A DNA stretch of 6,883 nt, taken from Salmonella phage IKe. Where the stretch lies: the sequence record NC_002014.1; one strand, given 5' to 3'. The position numbers were made by a program, and so were the translations under genes. Every line of letters begins with the position of its first letter. Positions within the stretch are counted from its first letter, which is position 1. Of the stretch, positions 1 to 6,883 are shown piece after piece. The notes beneath the pieces are model-generated. The model worked only from the letters and a program-made list of their open reading frames with translations. It did no database searches and was not told the origin of the DNA.

Positions 1-6
1 GAATTC

Positions 7-1272
7 ATGATCGACATGCTGGTGTTAAGGATACCTTTTAAAAGCTCTCTTGTGTCGGAGCGTCTTGATTCTAAGGGAAATTATGTTTCCCATGTGAATC
101 TTGCTGAGGTTGCACGACTCTCCGGTCTGACTCTCGCAGCACATACCGTTGAATATGCCATTGATGGTGATTTAACTGTATCCGGCCTTAAGCATCCTTA
201 CGAATCTCTTCCGTCTCATTATGCGGGTATCGCGCTGAAAATTTTTGAGGGCGGTAAAAACTTCGAGCCTTGTGTAGAGTTGAAAGCATCTCCGGCGAAG
301 TTGTTACAAGGTCACAACGTTTTTGGCCCGACTTCCTTTGAATTGTGTGGATTGGAGTTTTTCGGCGCTTTTGCGGCGGCTATGCCTGAACTGTATGACT
401 TGTGCGATGTAACTAATACTGTAGTTGGTCGTATTGACGTTACATTTAGTGCAAAGGTTGCTAACGATCATATTGCTAATCAGGTCATTTCCTTCCTTCG
501 TAATGTTTCTAATGGTCAGACCAAAAAGACTCGCGCCCTTGATTATGAAACCACTGTTATGTGGAACGAAGGGAGTCGCCATCGTACCCTTGTTGCATAT
601 TTGAAACATCATGAGGTACAGGCTCAGATCAAGAGACTACAAAAAAAGAAAAGCTCTCATCTTACGATCTACGAAAAAAATTGCTTGGAAGTATTAAGCA
701 ATCCTGATTTGCAATTATATGCAGTTGGCCTTGTTAGATTTGAGGCTAGACTTCATACACGTTTTTTTGAAAATTTTGGCTTGCCTAGAAAGTTCTTTGA
801 TATAGTTAAATATCAAGATAATTATGAAAGTGGCTCATTTAATTTAATTTGTGACCTGTGGAAAAAATCGTTTAAAGATCTGTTTGATGCCTTTAAAGGT
901 TCTGATATGAATGTTTATGATGATTCTAAAGTTTATGATGCTTTAATAAATAACTTTTCTTCTGTTACTAAATCAGGCAATATTTCTAATTCCAAAGCTA
1001 ACCGTTTATTTGGTTTTTATCGTCGCTTGGTGAATGAAGGTTATGATAATGTAGCTCAAACGATGGAACGCACTACATTCTGGCGCTCTCTAAAGGAATT
1101 AACTTCTGTAGGTTTGTCAAAGGCTCAATTAATGAACCTTTCGACGGATAATAATGTAGTGCCGTTGGTTCAAATGATTAATGTTGATTTTTCTCAGCAA
1201 TATCCTGAATGGTATGTTGAACCGGTATCTATTTTTAATCGTTCTAATGTAGTCAGCATTAACGCTGCTTAA
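7..1272 (+). CDS. II: Gene II protein (pII), replication initiator: site-specific nickase/ligase for rolling-circle replication
   Basis: 421-aa ORF starting MIDMLVLR; N-terminus and long blocks (GHNVFG, SRHRTLVAYLKH, LVRFEAR, FGFYRRLVNEGYD, LMNLS..NNVVPLV..INVDFS) match M13/f1 pII from memory. TAA stop at 1270-1272. Confidence 0.95.
   Translation: MIDMLVLRIPFKSSLVSERLDSKGNYVSHVNLAEVARLSGLTLAAHTVEYAIDGDLTVSGLKHPYESLPSHYAGIALKIFEGGKNFEPCVELKASPAKLLQGHNVFGPTSFELCGLEFFGAFAAAMPELYDLCDVTNTVVGRIDVTFSAKVANDHIANQVISFLRNVSNGQTKKTRALDYETTVMWNEGSRHRTLVAYLKHHEVQAQIKRLQKKKSSHLTIYEKNCLEVLSNPDLQLYAVGLVRFEARLHTRFFENFGLPRKFFDIVKYQDNYESGSFNLICDLWKKSFKDLFDAFKGSDMNVYDDSKVYDALINNFSSVTKSGNISNSKANRLFGFYRRLVNEGYDNVAQTMERTTFWRSLKELTSVGLSKAQLMNLSTDNNVVPLVQMINVDFSQQYPEWYVEPVSIFNRSNVVSINAA
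907..1272 (+). CDS. X: Gene X protein (pX), in-frame internal translation start within gene II, C-terminal 121 aa of pII
   Basis: In-frame ATG at 907 (MNVYDDS), equivalent to the M13 pX start MNIYDDS; AAGG at 896-899 gives a 7-nt spacer. Same stop as gene II. Confidence 0.8.
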   Translation: MNVYDDSKVYDALINNFSSVTKSGNISNSKANRLFGFYRRLVNEGYDNVAQTMERTTFWRSLKELTSVGLSKAQLMNLSTDNNVVPLVQMINVDFSQQYPEWYVEPVSIFNRSNVVSINAA

Positions 1273-2081: not shown

Positions 2082-3386
2082 GTGAAAAGAAAAATAATAG
2101 CAATTTCTTTATTTTTATACATCCCTTTGTCTAATGCTGATAATTGGGAGTCTATTACTAAAAGCTATTACACTGGCTTTGCCATTTCTAAAACTGTTGA
2201 ATCAAAAGATAAGGATGGTAAACCAGTTCGTAAAGAGGTTATAACTCAGGCTGATTTAACTACCGCCTGTAATGATGCTAAAGCCTCCGCACAAAATGTT
2301 TTTAATCAAATCAAGCTAACATTATCTGGTACATGGCCTAATTCTCAGTTTCGCCTTGTAACTGGTGATACCTGCGTTTATAACGGTTCGCCTGGTGAAA
2401 AAACTGAATCTTGGTCTATTCGCGCTCAGGTTGAGGGTGATATACAACGTTCTGTACCAGATGAAGAACCTTCTGAACAAACGCCAGAAGAAATTTGTGA
2501 AGCCAAACCTCCTATTGATGGCGTTTTTAATAACGTCTTTAAGGGTGACGAAGGAGGCTTTTATATTAATTATAATGGCTGTGAATATGAGGCAACTGGC
2601 GTTACTGTTTGCCAGAATGATGGAACTGTCTGTTCCTCCTCCGCTTGGAAGCCAACAGGTTACGTTCCCGAATCTGGAGAACCTTCCTCCTCTCCTCTGA
2701 AAGACGGTGACACTGGCGGTACTGGTGAAGGTGGTTCTGATACTGGCGGTGATACCGGTGGCGGTGATACTGGTGGTGGTTCTACTGGCGGCGATACTGG
2801 CGGTTCTTCTGGTGGCGGTTCGTCTGGTGGCGGTTCGTCTGGTGGATCAACTGGTAAATCACTGACAAAGGAAGATGTAACCGCAGCAATACATGTTGCT
2901 TCCCCTTCTATTGGTGATGCTGTTAAAGATTCTCTTACAGAAGATAATGACCAGTACGACAATCAGAAGAAAGCAGATGAACAATCAGCTAAAGCCTCTG
3001 CTTCTGTATCTGACGCTATCTCTGATGGTATGCGTGGCGTTGGTAATTTCGTTGACGATTTTGGCGGTGAGTCGTCGCAATACGGTACAGGCAATTCTGA
3101 AATGGATCTTTCCGTTAGCCTGGCTAAAGGGCAACTTGGAATTGATCGTGAGGGTCATGGTTCAGCTTGGGAATCTTTTTTAAATGATGGTGCTTTACGT
3201 CCCTCCATTCCTACTGGTCATGGTTGCACTAATTTTGTCATGTATCAGGGTTCTGTTTATCAGATTGAAATTGGCTGTGACAAATTAAATGATATTAAAT
3301 CAGTATTATCTTGGGTTATGTACTGTTTAACATTCTGGTATGTATTCCAGTCTGTTACTTCATTACTTCGTAAAGGTGAACAATAA
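2082..3386 (+). CDS. III: Gene III protein (pIII), minor coat / adsorption protein with signal peptide, receptor-binding N-terminal domains, Gly-rich linker and C-terminal membrane anchor
   Basis: GTG start at 2082 (M13 gIII also starts with GTG) with AAGG at 2071-2074. Signal peptide [19 protein letters not shown]. Gly/Ser/Thr/Asp-rich linker encoded around 2700-2860. Hydrophobic C-terminal anchor [21 protein letters not shown] stop at 3384-3386. Confidence 0.93.
2700..2860 (+). repeat. Gly-rich low-complexity linker of pIII, encoded by short tandem or near-tandem nucleotide repeats
   Basis: Repeated ggtgat/ggcgat-actggYggY units and an exact tandem duplication ggtggcggttcgtct (2811-2825 and 2826-2840), encoding DTGG and SSGGG repeats. 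Confidence 0.6.
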
Positions 3387-4837: not shown

Positions 4838-6151
4838 ATGAAATTACAGGCTGAAAAGAAATTAATTTTTGGGTATGTTGCTCTCTGTTTCCTTATGACA
4901 TTAGGCATTGCATTTAATGTTCTGGCTGATCCGGTCAATTTAAATAACGCTCCGGTGCGTTCGTTTGTGCAATGGTATTCGCAAAAATCTAATAAAGCTG
5001 TTGTTGTAAATCCTGATGTTAAAGGAAATATTACTGTATTTAATGCAGATGTTAATCAGGCCAATATTGATGATTTCTTTAAGTCTGTTCTTAACGCTAA
5101 TGGCTTTGTTCTTATGGCTGGTGATCCTTCAGGTGTGTCTACTCCGTCAAAGCTGCCTTCTCAACAGACCGATAATGATGATGATTATGAAGATTCCGCG
5201 GATTATGTTCCGGTTGGTGATTCTGTTCCGGTATCTGCCCAACCGCAAAAGCCTTTAGATCTTACCGTTCGCAATTTTAAGTTAACCCGCGTGCGTTCTT
5301 CTGACGTTCTTCCGCTTGCCAAAATCTTTGTCGATTCCAACGGTGGCGGCGATGTTATTGATTACCCAGGCAATAACAGCCTGTTGGTTTCTGGTTCTGC
5401 TGCTATCATGAATGCCCTGGCTGATTTCATTACGTCAATCGACGTTGCCCGTGATCAGGTTCTTATTCAGTCGCTTATGTTTGAAACCAGCTTAGTTAAT
5501 GGCGTGGATCTTTCTTTTGCTGCCGGTTCTGCTTCTGGTGATAAGGTCGCAGGCGGTTTCAATACATCTGCTCTTGGCACTGCACTTTCAACTGCTGGCG
5601 GTTCCTTCGGCATCTTTAACGGTAATGTTTTAGCGTTATCCATTCAGGCGGTAAAAAATGACTCTAATTCAAAAGTTATTTCTACCCCGCGCATCCTGAC
5701 GCAATCAGGTCAGACAGGTTACATCTCTGTAGGTCAAAATGTGCCGTTTGTCACTGGTAAGGTAACGGGTGAGGCTGCAAATGTTAACAACCCTTTCCAG
5801 ACCATTGAGCGCCGCGATGTTGGTGTTTCTCTTAAGGTGACGCCTGTTGTCATGGGTAATGGTCAGCTTGTTCTTACCATTGATACCAAAGCTGACTCCC
5901 TAACCAGTCAAATGACTGCTAGCGACATCATTACTAATCAGCGTCATATGCAAACGACAGTGCAGATAAAAGACGGTCAGACGCTTTTGCTTGGTGGTCT
6001 TATCGATTCCAATACAACTGACGGTAATCGCTCTGTACCTTGGTTTGAAAGCGTACCTGTGATTGGCTGGTTGTTCCGCAGCCATAGTGATTCGCATAAC
6101 GAAAGAACTATGTTTGTTCTCCTTACCGCGCACGTTATTAAGGCGCTTTGA
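4838..6151 (+). CDS. IV: Gene IV protein (pIV), outer-membrane secretin for phage extrusion
   Basis: ATG at 4838 (AAGG at 4827-4830), 3 nt after the gene I stop. N-terminal signal peptide, then blocks matching M13 pIV: LDFSFAAGS, SAGGSFGIFNG, STPRILT, VGQNVPFVTG.VTGE.ANVNNPFQTIER, DGQTLLLGGL. TGA stop at 6149-6151. Confidence 0.93.
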   Translation: MKLQAEKKLIFGYVALCFLMTLGIAFNVLADPVNLNNAPVRSFVQWYSQKSNKAVVVNPDVKGNITVFNADVNQANIDDFFKSVLNANGFVLMAGDPSGVSTPSKLPSQQTDNDDDYEDSADYVPVGDSVPVSAQPQKPLDLTVRNFKLTRVRSSDVLPLAKIFVDSNGGGDVIDYPGNNSLLVSGSAAIMNALADFITSIDVARDQVLIQSLMFETSLVNGVDLSFAAGSASGDKVAGGFNTSALGTALSTAGGSFGIFNGNVLALSIQAVKNDSNSKVISTPRILTQSGQTGYISVGQNVPFVTGKVTGEAANVNNPFQTIERRDVGVSLKVTPVVMGNGQLVLTIDTKADSLTSQMTASDIITNQRHMQTTVQIKDGQTLLLGGLIDSNTTDGNRSVPWFESVPVIGWLFRSHSDSHNERTMFVLLTAHVIKAL

Positions 6152-6340
6152 GGCTGCCGGGTAGGTGCGCTAGCCCTGCCCGTAGACTCTTGCGCCTCTC
6201 CGTGTGCGCGGCTTCGATACAACGTATGTTCCTCGGTTTTCACATCCATAATGGCTGCGGTGCTAACGGCTAGTTAGTACGTGATAATTTTCACGTACTC
6301 CGCCCTTCTCTTTCGGCGTTCTCCGGCGTCGAATCGTCAA
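6152..6340 (+). other. GC-rich noncoding segment at the position of the Ff morphogenetic (packaging) signal; includes a 9-bp-stem hairpin at 6276-6299
   Basis: Lies immediately after gene IV, where the hairpin A packaging signal sits in Ff phages. GC-rich against an AT-rich genome. Perfect inverted repeat agtacgtga (6276-6284) / tcacgtact (6291-6299) with loop taattt. The exact packaging hairpin could not be folded by eye. Confidence 0.3.
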
Positions 6341-6344
6341 ACGC

Positions 6345-6460
6345 TAAATCGTGGGGGCCCCTTTGGGCCGATTTAGTGATTTACGACACTCCATAAATAT
6401 CCTTGTTATGGGTGATGGTTCACGTAGTGGGCCATCGCCTTGTTAGACGTTTTTTTCTTT
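6345..6460 (+). other. Minus-strand (complementary-strand) origin region, the site of RNA-primer synthesis by host RNA polymerase on the ssDNA
   Basis: Strong similarity to the Ff minus-strand origin as I recall it (aaatcg.ggggc.ccctttgggccgatttagtg...). The 30-nt block 6410-6439, gggtgatggttcacgtagtgggccatcgcc, appears identical to M13. Confidence 0.6.
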
Positions 6461-6473
6461 TGGTGATCGATAA

Positions 6474-6550
6474 GCGATTTTGTAGTTTGACGGTCGTAGA
6501 CGAAAGGACGTGGAAGCGGCGATTTTGGATCTGGCAGTCGGCTCGGTCGT
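6474..6550 (+). repeat. Imperfect direct duplication within the inter-origin spacer
   Basis: gcgattttg occurs at 6474-6482 and 6519-6527; cggtcgt occurs at 6491-6497 and 6544-6550. The spacing is consistent with an imperfect duplicated unit of about 45-53 nt. GATC sites at 6465-6468 and 6528-6531. Confidence 0.4.
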
Positions 6551-6553
6551 GGT

Positions 6554-6600
6554 GAGTCCACTATGTTTAATAGTGGACTCTTGTTGCATTTTGCAACGTG
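6554..6600 (+). other. Plus-strand replication origin core: pII nick-site hairpin and adjacent pII-binding hairpin
   Basis: Perfect 11-bp inverted repeat gagtccactat (6554-6564) / atagtggactc (6570-6580) with loop gttta, homologous to the M13 nick hairpin (gagtccacgttctttaatagtggactc). By analogy, the nick is between T6568 and A6569. Second hairpin gttgca-ttt-tgcaac at 6583-6597, at the position of Ff hairpin E. Confidence 0.8.
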
Positions 6601-6798
6601 CTACAGCCCTCTCTCCTTCAAAACTCCTTCGATTGCTTCTTCAAGTTTATGTTTTATAAGATAATTTATCAGTTCTGATTTTTTTATAGGCAAACCAGCT
6701 CTTTTTGTTGCTTCGACAGTTGCCGTTACCAGTAAATTTTGCATGTGCCTATTGATAGTTACTGTAGTTCTACTGCCTCTTTTACCTAGTGTATTCAT
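6601..6798 (-). CDS. Hypothetical small basic protein (65 aa) encoded antisense in the intergenic region; putative ribbon-helix-helix (CopG/Arc/MetJ-like) DNA-binding protein
   Basis: Minus-strand ATG (plus 6796-6798), preceded on the minus strand by AGGA (plus 6807-6810) with an 8-nt spacer. The ORF stays open in AT-rich noncoding DNA. The product has a basic N-terminal tail, a predicted beta-strand (TTVTI), helix A (NRHMQNLLVTATVEATKRA), a G-containing turn (GLP) and helix B (KKSELINYLIKHKLEE), resembling the RHH pattern. No homology search was possible. Confidence 0.35.
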   Translation of the reverse strand: MNTLGKRGSRTTVTINRHMQNLLVTATVEATKRAGLPIKKSELINYLIKHKLEEAIEGVLKERGL

Positions 6799-6828
6799 AA
6801 AATAAATCCTAAAGATCTTTACAAATAG

Positions 6829-6856
6829 TTGCGTTTAAATTTACATGTGTTAAATT
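6829..6856 (+). promoter_or_regulatory. Putative gene II promoter (circular context): -35 TTGCGT, 16-nt spacer, extended -10 TGtTAAATT
   Basis: -35-like TTGCGT at 6829-6834 and TGnTAAATT at 6848-6856, about 35 nt upstream of the gene II ATG once the window is circularized. Weak match, assigned by eye only. Confidence 0.3.
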
Positions 6857-6883
6857 ACGCACATGGTGAGTGTTTGAGTGCTT

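What the first reader, a model, noticed from the sequence alone, without database searches (positions are those of the whole stretch)
6601..6798. Antisense 65-codon ORF in the replication-origin intergenic region with a ribbon-helix-helix-like product
Ff-type filamentous phages are described as encoding all their proteins on the viral (+) strand, with the intergenic region regarded as noncoding. Here a 198-nt ORF runs on the minus strand from just upstream of the gene II start to the nucleotide adjacent to the plus-strand origin hairpins (stop codon at plus 6601-6603; hairpin ends at 6597). It has an AGGA Shine-Dalgarno-like motif 8 nt upstream of its ATG. It stays open through AT-rich DNA where stop codons should be frequent. 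Its product (MNTLGKRGSRTTVTINRHMQNLLVTATVEATKRAGLPIKKSELINYLIKHKLEEAIEGVLKERGL) is basic and follows the beta-strand / helix / G-turn / helix layout of RHH repressors; the segment GLPIKKSELINYLIK resembles the G-x-S/T-x-S-E-L-I-R-x-A-L helix B of CopG/ParG/Arc-type proteins. If expressed from the replicative form, it would be a divergently transcribed small DNA-binding protein sitting on origin domain B and the gene II promoter. That is a plausible replication or copy-number regulator, analogous to repressors in other inovirus lineages but undescribed for Ff/IKe as far as I know. I could not identify a convincing sigma70 promoter for it by eye.
Basis: partly seen in the sequence, partly recalled or inferred. 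Interest (0 to 1): 0.8.

Follow-up and report, generated by a model that had tools for sequence, protein, structure and literature searches.

The report
Overlooked repressor-like gene in phage IKe

The parts
6601..6798 (-). 65-codon gene (ATG 6798-6796, stop 6603-6601) for a small basic ribbon-helix-helix protein of the RstR(env)-like family / phrog_2503
6807..6811 (-). Shine-Dalgarno TAGGA, 8 nt upstream of the ATG
   Evidence: TAGGA is invariant in the alignment of 13 upstream regions, including the divergent lineages. AGGA or GAGG is also present in the pII-sampled relatives.
6866..6883 (.). First two and a quarter units of a period-8 direct-repeat array (plus strand GTGAGTGT | TTGAGTGC | TT..; minus strand ACTCAAAC type). 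Candidate operator. It continues across the circular junction into 1-6.
   Evidence: The array is seen in all IKe-type control regions. TRF finds 3.1 perfect ACTCAAAC copies at the same place in L015. Other lineages have other period-8 arrays there. The array type follows the protein's beta-strand, not pV or pII. The operator role is inferred.
1..6 (.). End of the third 8-bp unit (TTGAATTC = 6882-6883 + 1-6), abutting the gene II ATG at 7
   Evidence: sequence across the circular junction.
6830..6861 (.). Imperfect dyad TGCGT-N22-ACGCA centred on ACA|TGT (6845|6846). It contains CATGTG-N10-CACATG and overlaps both candidate divergent promoters. Alternative or additional operator.
   Evidence: Read. 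CATGT is invariant across lineages. Its function is inferred only.
6825..6853 (-). Weak candidate promoter for the small gene: TTAACA (6853-6848), 17 nt, AACTAT (6830-6825)
   Evidence: Found by eye, 8 of 12 matches. It is below the scan's threshold, and one search found no site. It is mostly conserved in the IKe clade. Unproven.
6818..6856 (+). Candidate gene II promoters: TTTACA-17-TTACAT (6818-6846) or TTGCGT-16-TAAATT (6829-6856)
   Evidence: Found by eye. TTTACA and the downstream block are invariant between IKe and the PEar phages. Not found by the scan. Inferred.
6554..6597 (+). Plus-strand origin hairpins. The first is GAGTCCACTAT/ATAGTGGACTC, with the presumed pII nick TTT^AAT at 6568|6569 by analogy with Ff. 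The second is GTTGCA/TGCAAC. The gene's stop codon lies 4 nt beyond.
   Evidence: The same ORF-stop/origin juxtaposition occurs in all metagenomic relatives. The nick position rests on my knowledge of the f1 origin and was not tested.
7..1272 (+). Gene II (Phage_CRI replication initiator), the divergent neighbour and presumed regulatory target
   Evidence: PEar annotation. Pfam PF05144/PF05155 on the homologous genes.

Best explanation
The minus-strand ORF is a genuine eleventh gene of IKe. [quoted passage not shown]

It would be transcribed from the double-stranded replicative form, divergently from gene II. Its two-stranded beta-ribbon would read short repeats in the roughly 90-bp control region between the two genes. 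The most likely target is the period-8 array A(C/T)TCAA(A/G)C that fills the gene II leader right up to the ATG. The dyad at 6830-6861, which overlaps both promoters, may also be bound.

Binding would lower transcription of gene II/X and probably of the small gene itself. That would set replicative-form copy number and could block superinfection by phages with the same operator. This is the role RstR plays at the rstA promoter of CTXphi, and the gene order is the same: origin, small gene pointing left, control region, initiator pointing right.

Shown here: the gene is real and under selection; the fold and dimer are predicted; homology to rstR(env)-type genes; conserved synteny; repeat arrays that co-vary with the beta-strand.

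Inferred: expression, DNA binding, the identity of the operator, and repression.
For: - Real gene.
- Constant position and orientation next to Phage_CRI/RstA-type initiators, across IKe-like and clearly different inoviruses.
- Homology: the IKe-family profile matches pre-CTX RstR, the VAI2 RstR-like protein and the phiAFP1 regulator at E 2e-9, 6e-9 and 3e-10, computed for an assumed database of 1e6 sequences, over about 58 residues. All three are divergent from the initiator gene.
- Function of relatives: in PMC11509585, each rstR allele tested repressed its cognate rstA promoter. The tested rstR6 is 192 bp, and its primer-encoded termini (MKKKYTSLRV.. and ..QKTDLKR*) resemble this family.
- Operator: period-8 arrays lie next to gene II. 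L036 has both a changed beta-strand (RTNVTLS) and a changed array. L013, its closest relative here (pII 89%, pV 69% identical), keeps RTTLTMN and ACTCAAAC. Five lineages whose pV is only 41-61% identical share both RTTVTIN and ACTCAAAC.
Against: - No sigma-70 promoter passes the scan on either strand, and there are no transcript or protein data.
- IKe is non-integrating and is not known to form lysogens (PMC7307601), so a CTXphi-style immunity repressor has no obvious lysogenic state to maintain.
- The repeat array lies in the gene II leader, so it could instead be an RNA-level signal.
- The covariation rests on few independent switches.
- The repressor activity of the exact 'environmental' rstR allele was not found tested. 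Placing rstR6 in this family rests only on its primer-encoded ends and its length.
- f1/M13 manage without the gene.
Confidence: 0.6

Rival explanations
1. Origin-accessory factor. The RHH protein binds near the plus-strand origin and helps pII nick or assemble there, as RHH accessory proteins (TraY, NikA, ArtA-like) help relaxases at oriT. It would functionally replace the protein-free 'domain B' enhancer of Ff, whose position the gene occupies.
Against: The lineage-specific repeats lie at the gene II end of the gene, not the origin end. The ACTCAAAC motif is absent from the origin region. Homologs are annotated as RstR repressors, and tested rstR alleles act on the rstA promoter.
Confidence: 0.15
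2. The protein is made but acts mainly as a superinfection-immunity or exclusion determinant between competing IKe-like phages, with little effect on the phage's own copy number.
For: The family includes rstR alleles, whose diversity underlies CTXphi heteroimmunity (PMC11509585). The gene evolves faster than pII: 71% against 98% identity for L010. Its N-terminal half looks like an exchanged allele, with dS above 1 inside 92%-identical genomes.
Against: The IKe and PEar4/L010 alleles differ greatly in helix A yet keep the same beta-strand type and the same repeat array, so they would not be heteroimmune. This reading overlaps the best explanation mechanistically.
Confidence: 0.12
3. Partition or antitoxin-type RHH: a ParG/omega-like centromere binder, or the antitoxin of a toxin-antitoxin pair.
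Against: There is no partner ATPase or toxin gene. The 6.9-kb genomes hold only the ten canonical genes plus this one. The protein lacks the C-terminal toxin-binding extension.
Confidence: 0.04
4. Not a gene. The ORF is a chance open frame, and its conservation reflects DNA-level constraints of the origin or enhancer region.
For: ORFs of this length are common in shuffled sequence. There is no promoter consensus. The ORF is unannotated in IKe, PEar, If1 and I2-2. It is truncated in the PEar1/2/6 records.
Against: Third-position-biased variation, dN/dS 0.12-0.30 at saturated dS, and 0 stops against 18-103 in the other frames. The ORF is intact at down to 20-40% protein identity in unrelated genomes in the same position. 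The Shine-Dalgarno is invariant. The fold prediction is confident. The PEar1/2/6 gaps also remove the origin nick hairpin, so they are probably assembly gaps rather than viable deletions.
Confidence: 0.02

Closest known systems
RstR of CTXphi / pre-CTXphi, 'environmental' allele (GQ466611 strain IB1617, KR063268), and the RstR-like ORF11 of Vibrio anguillarum phages VAI1/VAI2
   Same: The sequences are homologous (profile E about 1e-9 over about 58 residues). The core is the same size, about 64 aa. The layout is the same: small gene pointing left, control region, then an RstA/pII-type initiator pointing right. The control region carries lineage-specific short repeats.
   Different: Identity to IKe is only about 20-25%. 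The DNA-facing beta-strand residues differ (D-T-R-N against R-T-T-N). The candidate operator is GCATGC palindromes rather than a period-8 array. The host phages integrate and form lysogens, and IKe does not (PMC7307601). From my knowledge, the well-studied RstR alleles (ET, classical) are about 112 aa and helix-turn-helix, so they are not this family; this was not tested here. No paper in the library links RstR with ribbon-helix-helix.
CopG (RepA) of rolling-circle plasmid pMV158 and CopG-family RHH repressors
   Different: From memory, CopG is co-transcribed with repB from one promoter and binds a 13-bp pseudo-symmetric element. Here the gene is divergent and the candidate operator is a direct-repeat array. 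No Pfam CopG/RHH_1 match reaches threshold. Helix B is longer (23 residues) and the interhelix loop is longer (G-L-P-I-K-x-S).
Omega (pSM19035) and ParG (TP228): RHH proteins that bind arrays of short tandem repeats; also the omega-like ORF13 of episomal Pseudomonas inovirus PMBT54
   Different: There is no partner partition ATPase. No significant sequence similarity: ParG E=0.47. PMBT54 ORF13 was not compared directly.
Ff (f1/M13/fd) origin 'domain B' and gene II control region
   Same: Same genomic slot, between the plus-strand origin core and the gene II promoter.
   Different: Ff has no ORF of this family in any frame, and its slot is about 100 nt shorter. From my knowledge, Ff regulates gene II through pV/pX and uses IHF at domain B.

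Membership tests
Ribbon-helix-helix (MetJ/Arc/CopG) superfamily | Strand-helix-helix topology in a domain of about 45-60 residues | tested here: met
   AF2, pLDDT 87: extended 10-16, H17-34, H40-62.
Ribbon-helix-helix (MetJ/Arc/CopG) superfamily | Obligate dimer whose two N-terminal strands pair into an antiparallel beta-ribbon | tested here: met
   In the tandem monomer-linker-monomer AF2 model, E11-15 and E106-110 appear only in the dimer context, with pLDDT 88-92 in the folded parts. This is a prediction, not an experiment, and the coordinates were not inspected.
Ribbon-helix-helix (MetJ/Arc/CopG) superfamily | Structural similarity to solved RHH proteins | tested here: inconclusive
Ribbon-helix-helix (MetJ/Arc/CopG) superfamily | Match to a curated RHH sequence profile (Pfam RHH_1/3/5 and others) above the gathering score | tested here: not met
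   No Pfam hit for the IKe protein even at E<=10. Homologs hit RHH_3/RHH_5 only at 13-16 bits, against cut-offs of 21.6-26.
Ribbon-helix-helix (MetJ/Arc/CopG) superfamily | Sequence-specific binding of repeated DNA sites through the beta-ribbon | not testable with these tools
   Only indirect evidence: lineage-specific repeat arrays that co-vary with beta-strand residues.
RstR-type inovirus repressor (functional class, CTXphi RS2 layout) | Small gene between the plus-strand origin region and the rstA/gII initiator gene, transcribed divergently from it | tested here: met
   That the CTXphi origin lies in ig-1 is from my knowledge.
RstR-type inovirus repressor (functional class, CTXphi RS2 layout) | Sequence homology to a gene named rstR | tested here: met
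   Profile against pre-CTX RstR E=1.9e-9 and against the VAI2 RstR-like protein E=6e-9, computed for an assumed database of 1e6 sequences. This holds for the 'environmental' allele class only.
RstR-type inovirus repressor (functional class, CTXphi RS2 layout) | Represses the initiator promoter and confers allele-specific immunity | not testable with these tools
   Shown for other rstR alleles in PMC11509585. Not shown for IKe or for the environmental allele.
RstR-type inovirus repressor (functional class, CTXphi RS2 layout) | Maintains a prophage or lysogenic state | not tested
   IKe is described as non-integrating (PMC7307601). A repressed episomal state has not been examined.
phrog_2503 (PHROGs, unknown function) | Significant match to the family profile over most of its length | tested here: met
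   E=2.1e-7, residues 9-60 on profile positions 4-55 of 65. Distant members score 1e-12 to 5e-7.
ParG/omega partition-operator RHH | Partner Walker-type partition ATPase encoded alongside | tested here: not met
   The gene maps of about 20 genomes show only canonical inovirus genes.

The most novel reading that the evidence does not exclude
IKe, I2-2 and If1 are textbook 'non-temperate' coliphages thought to encode everything on one strand. This reading says they all carry a working CTXphi-type repressor module. IKe-like phages could then enter a repressed, low-copy carrier state and form immunity groups. A whole class of rstR alleles would be ribbon-helix-helix proteins that read period-8 repeat arrays, rather than helix-turn-helix proteins.
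Probability: 0.3. Interest if true: 0.75.

Novelty: new member of a known kind. Interest (0 to 1): 0.6.

Why it matters
IKe has been a reference filamentous phage since its 1985 sequence. It is described, like Ff, as having ten genes on one strand and a non-coding intergenic region. A conserved eleventh gene on the other strand changes the gene map of IKe, If1 and probably I2-2.

It places a regulator exactly between the origin and the replication gene. It also links the 'lytic-like' chronic coliphages to the repressor modules of temperate vibriophages such as CTXphi.

In practical terms:
- It gives a directly testable handle on how IKe-type phages set copy number and exclude competitors.
- It flags that IKe-derived vectors and origin fragments may carry, or cut through, a DNA-binding protein gene.
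- It suggests that some rstR alleles used for typing cholera phages belong to a different fold class from the studied ones.

Tried and rejected
- **Pfam on the IKe protein:** nothing, even at E<=10. On homologs, only sub-threshold RHH_3/RHH_5 hits.
- **PDB sequence and profile searches:** nothing meaningful. ParG helix B at E=0.47.
- **Foldseek against the PDB:** no significant hit.
- **Promoter scan:** no sigma-70 site on either strand of 6150-6883. The promoters listed under parts are by-eye candidates only.
- **Rfam on 6100-6883:** no RNA family.
- **ORF length as evidence:** rejected, because long ORFs are common in shuffles.
- **PEar1/2/6 truncations as proof the gene is dispensable:** rejected. 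The same gaps remove the origin nick hairpin, have three different end points, and come from short-read assemblies.
- **Mapping the 'environmental' rstR onto an allele tested in PMC11509585 using primer sequences:** no exact match. Only rstR6 resembles the family, in its termini and its 192-bp length. The database search with the Vibrio protein did not return rstR6.
- **Searching for the ACTCAAAC unit elsewhere, for example at the origin:** only the control-region copy, fewer than chance expects.
disfavoured, because the array is shared by lineages whose pV is only 41-61% identical. Not excluded.
- **Weak tblastn hit to the ClpA-like protein of phage A4 (E=8):** dismissed as noise.

Full report
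**What the window is.** The 6883-nt window is the genome of filamentous phage IKe. IMG/VR holds a 6883-nt contig with a 100% identical pII. The published Erwinia PEar phages are about 92% identical to the window, and their paper gives IKe as 6883 nt (PMC7697814). Gene II starts at base 7, so the finding lies at the far end of the large intergenic region, just upstream of gene II on the circular map.

**The observation.** The ORF listing returns 6601..6798 (-), 65 aa, ATG.
- The stop codon is at 6601-6603, four bases beyond the second origin hairpin (GTTGCA 6583-6588 / TGCAAC 6592-6597).
- AGGA lies 8 nt before the ATG.
- The product is basic.

Length alone means little. An ORF of at least 65 aa arises in 59% of shuffles of the whole intergenic region and in 4% of shuffles of its AT-rich part.

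**It is a real gene.** A search of 5.8 billion protein clusters found 14 close homologs, almost all 62-66 aa, on contigs of about 6.5-7.5 kb.
- In every contig fetched, the gene lies between gene IV and a Phage_CRI gene II, on the opposite strand, about 92-104 nt from the gene II start.
- Four of these genomes (L012, L013/14, L015/16, L018) are not IKe-like in their structural genes (DUF2523-type pVI, unrelated pIII, short secretin), yet they keep the gene.
- One apparently short homolog (47 aa) was a start-codon miscall. The true ORF is 62 aa with the same AGGA-N8-ATG.
- Codon-level analysis of 14 distinct sequences gives dN/dS of 0.12-0.30 at dS of about 1-1.8, and variable columns of 31, 18 and 53 of 66 at codon positions 1, 2 and 3.
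- The ORF frame has no stop in any sequence, while the other five frames accumulate 18-103. Synonymous versus non-synonymous tables give Fisher p of 1e-6 to 1e-9.
- That set was found through the protein itself, so I resampled through pII. All five non-IKe relatives in IMG/VR (pII 97-66% identical) carry an intact 62-66-codon ORF with an AGGA or GAGG ribosome-binding site.
- TAGGA is invariant in the alignment of upstream regions.
- DNA-level constraint from the origin cannot produce third-position-biased variation. Rfam finds no RNA family there.

**Fold.**
- Pfam finds nothing for the IKe protein and only sub-threshold RHH_3/RHH_5 hits on the beta-strand of some homologs. PDB sequence searches are empty.
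- AlphaFold2 with the family alignment gives a confident monomer (pLDDT 87): extended residues 10-16, helix 17-34, a five-residue loop, helix 40-62.
- Foldseek gives no significant match, so the structural evidence is consistent but not overwhelming.
- I built a tandem monomer-(GGGGS)6-monomer version of 20 family members and modelled it. Residues 11-15 of both copies become beta-strands, and the folded parts score pLDDT 88-92. These are the only two strands in the model, so they must pair with each other. That is the RHH ribbon.
- The DNA-facing residues would be R10, T12, T14 and N16.

**Relatives with names.** An exhaustive HMM search of 1.84 billion representatives found only three further small relatives of 60-61 aa. 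Two were placed in genomes, again divergent from a Phage_CRI gene II. All members hit phrog_2503, a PHROG of unknown function.

tblastn with these distant members reached genes annotated rstR or 'RstR-like transcriptional regulator' in Vibrio phages VAI1/VAI2, in CTXphi strain IB1617 ('environmental RstR') and in a pre-CTX phage. It also reached a 'putative regulator' of Alteromonas phage phiAFP1. Each is divergent from the RstA-type initiator. A profile built from the IKe-type family matches them end to end at E of 3e-10 to 6e-9, computed for an assumed database of a million sequences.

Searching back with the Vibrio protein found several more copies:
- An unannotated copy inside the annotated 'major intergenic region' of coliphage If1.
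- A human saliva inovirus, where the record annotates a truncated version.
- An Aeromonas phage and several 'Dulem' viruses.

A six-frame profile scan shows that I2-2 also has a copy 170 nt upstream of, and divergent from, its unrelated gene II. It is split by a one-base frame slip in the deposited sequence: MKKPVRTTASIT...VTWTD / IHLNYVIENY...KKGGV. f1 has none.

**Is it known?**
- The UPphi paper states the region 'is intergenic in I2-2, IKe, and M13'.
- The exact IKe protein is not in a 15-billion-protein collection that includes nr. Near-identical proteins from Salmonella, Citrobacter, Klebsiella, E. coli and Tatumella assemblies are all 'hypothetical protein'.
- No paper in the library contains both 'RstR' and 'ribbon-helix-helix'.
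- An omega-like RHH ORF has been proposed as a copy-number regulator in the episomal Pseudomonas inovirus PMBT54, so the idea has precedent.

**How it probably works.** The roughly 90-bp region between the two start codons carries a period-8 direct-repeat array that runs right up to the gene II ATG.
- Plus strand: GTGAGTGT | TTGAGTGC | TTGAATTC, at 6866-6883 and 1-6.
- Minus strand: A(C/T)TCAA(A/G)C.
- It also carries an imperfect dyad, TGCGT-N22-ACGCA, centred on ACA|TGT at 6845|6846. This overlaps the by-eye candidate promoters for both genes.

Other lineages have other repeats in the same place:
- TAAATGAA, 4.4 copies, in L022 (TRF).
- ACTCAAAC, 3.1 perfect copies, in L015.
- GCATGC palindromes in the Vibrio phages, and AGAATA/TATTCT in phiAFP1.

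The array type follows the protein's beta-strand.
- IKe, L012, L013, L015 and L037 share RTT(V/L)T(I/V/M)N and the ACTCAAAC array, although their pV proteins are only 41-61% identical.
- L036 has a changed strand (RTNVTLS) and a different period-8 array (TRF). Its pII and pV are closest to those of L013 (89% and 69%).

It rests on few independent switches, and an RNA-level role for the leader is not excluded.

By homology and layout, the likeliest function is repression of the gene II promoter and autoregulation, as shown for several rstR alleles at their cognate rstA promoters (PMC11509585). One tested allele, rstR6, is 192 bp, and its primer-encoded ends resemble this family. I could not confirm its membership.

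**What argues for caution.**
- No promoter passes the consensus scan, and nothing shows that the gene is expressed.
- IKe is not known to lysogenise.
- The gene evolves faster than pII: 71% against 98% identity for L010.
- Its N-terminal half in PEar4/L010 looks like an exchanged allele, with dS above 1 inside genomes that are 92% identical.
- The PEar1/2/6 records lack the gene's 3' half. The same gaps remove the nick-site hairpin and have three different end points, so I read them as assembly gaps, not as evidence that the gene is dispensable.

**Rival readings.** The main rival is an origin-accessory role, suggested by the invariable abutment of the stop codon on the origin hairpins. The repeats lie at the other end of the gene, and the ACTCAAAC unit is absent from the origin. 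An antitoxin or partition role lacks a partner gene. The 'not a gene' reading is contradicted by the codon evidence.

**Verdict.** This is a new, unannotated member of a known kind: small divergent repressor genes of inovirus replication modules. Two things add to its interest. It sits in three textbook coliphages thought to have non-coding intergenic regions, and it shows that one class of rstR alleles has a ribbon-helix-helix fold. Interest 0.6.

Noticed in passing
L029 (If1, NC_001954.1 reverse complement of 2643-7792): 707-2405: The If1 reference genome carries an IS200/IS605-type insertion inside its 'major intergenic region'. An unannotated 147-aa ORF (1962-2405) matches Y1_Tnp at E=1e-27. 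The annotated 'ORF348, homologous to eryA' matches OrfB_IS605 plus the Cas12f1-like TNB domain, i.e. it is a TnpB. This explains much of If1's extra length (8454 nt).
   Followed up: yes
L031 (I2-2, NC_001332.1) 2720-2918, minus strand: I2-2 has a copy of the same small gene, split by a one-base frame slip after ..VTWTD. This is either a real pseudogene or an error in the 1992 sequence. Its control region contains a perfect 14-bp palindrome, ACGTGTATACACGT, just upstream of gene II.
   Followed up: partly
L001 (PEar4) 6130-6801; L002-L004 (PEar2/1/6) intergenic regions; window 6460-6700: In PEar4 the 3' half of the plus-origin (AATAGTGGACTCTTGTTGCATTTTGCAACGTGCTA) sits about 100 nt upstream of its 5' half. 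All other relatives have the IKe order. The rearrangement removes the small gene's stop codon, so the ORF reads on for about 25 more codons. PEar1/2/6 lack the nick hairpin altogether, with three different deletion end points. These are probably assembly artefacts of short-read Unicycler assemblies, but this is unexplained.
   Followed up: partly
window 6700-6798 compared with L001/L010: The N-terminal half of the small gene is far more diverged between IKe and the PEar4/L010 type than the flanking genome. The intergenic stretch is 80% identical against 92% genome-wide, and the gene's dS is 1.3-1.8. There are no indels. This looks like allele exchange by recombination.
   Followed up: partly
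L026 (pre-CTX KR063268) 2917-3177; L028 (CTXphi IB1617): The 'environmental' rstR is annotated as 86 aa. The conserved family core starts at the internal Met (MEKRGDTT.., 64 aa), which is the annotated start in VAI1/2. The 22-residue N-terminal extension is probably a start-codon miscall.
   Followed up: no
L015 (12.7-kb JGI contig), L022-L024 (9.5-11 kb): Several metagenomic 'long' inovirus contigs are head-to-tail repeats of one genome, with the same gene order appearing twice. They are either assemblies running round a circle or true tandem RF or prophage dimers.
   Followed up: no
L018 658-801; L030 2552-2704: Gene callers and annotators repeatedly pick an internal ATG for this small gene: 47 aa in a Salmonella Agona assembly, and a truncated CDS in Inovirus D_HF5_61. 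Family members are therefore under-length in the databases.
   Followed up: yes
window 6866-6883 + 1-6 (gene II leader): The 5' untranslated leader of gene II consists almost entirely of the G/T-rich 8-mer array (GGTGAGTGTTTGAGTGCTTGAATTC). Besides being a candidate operator, it could be the IKe counterpart of the pV translational operator on Ff gene II mRNA (the Ff operator is from my knowledge).
   Followed up: partly
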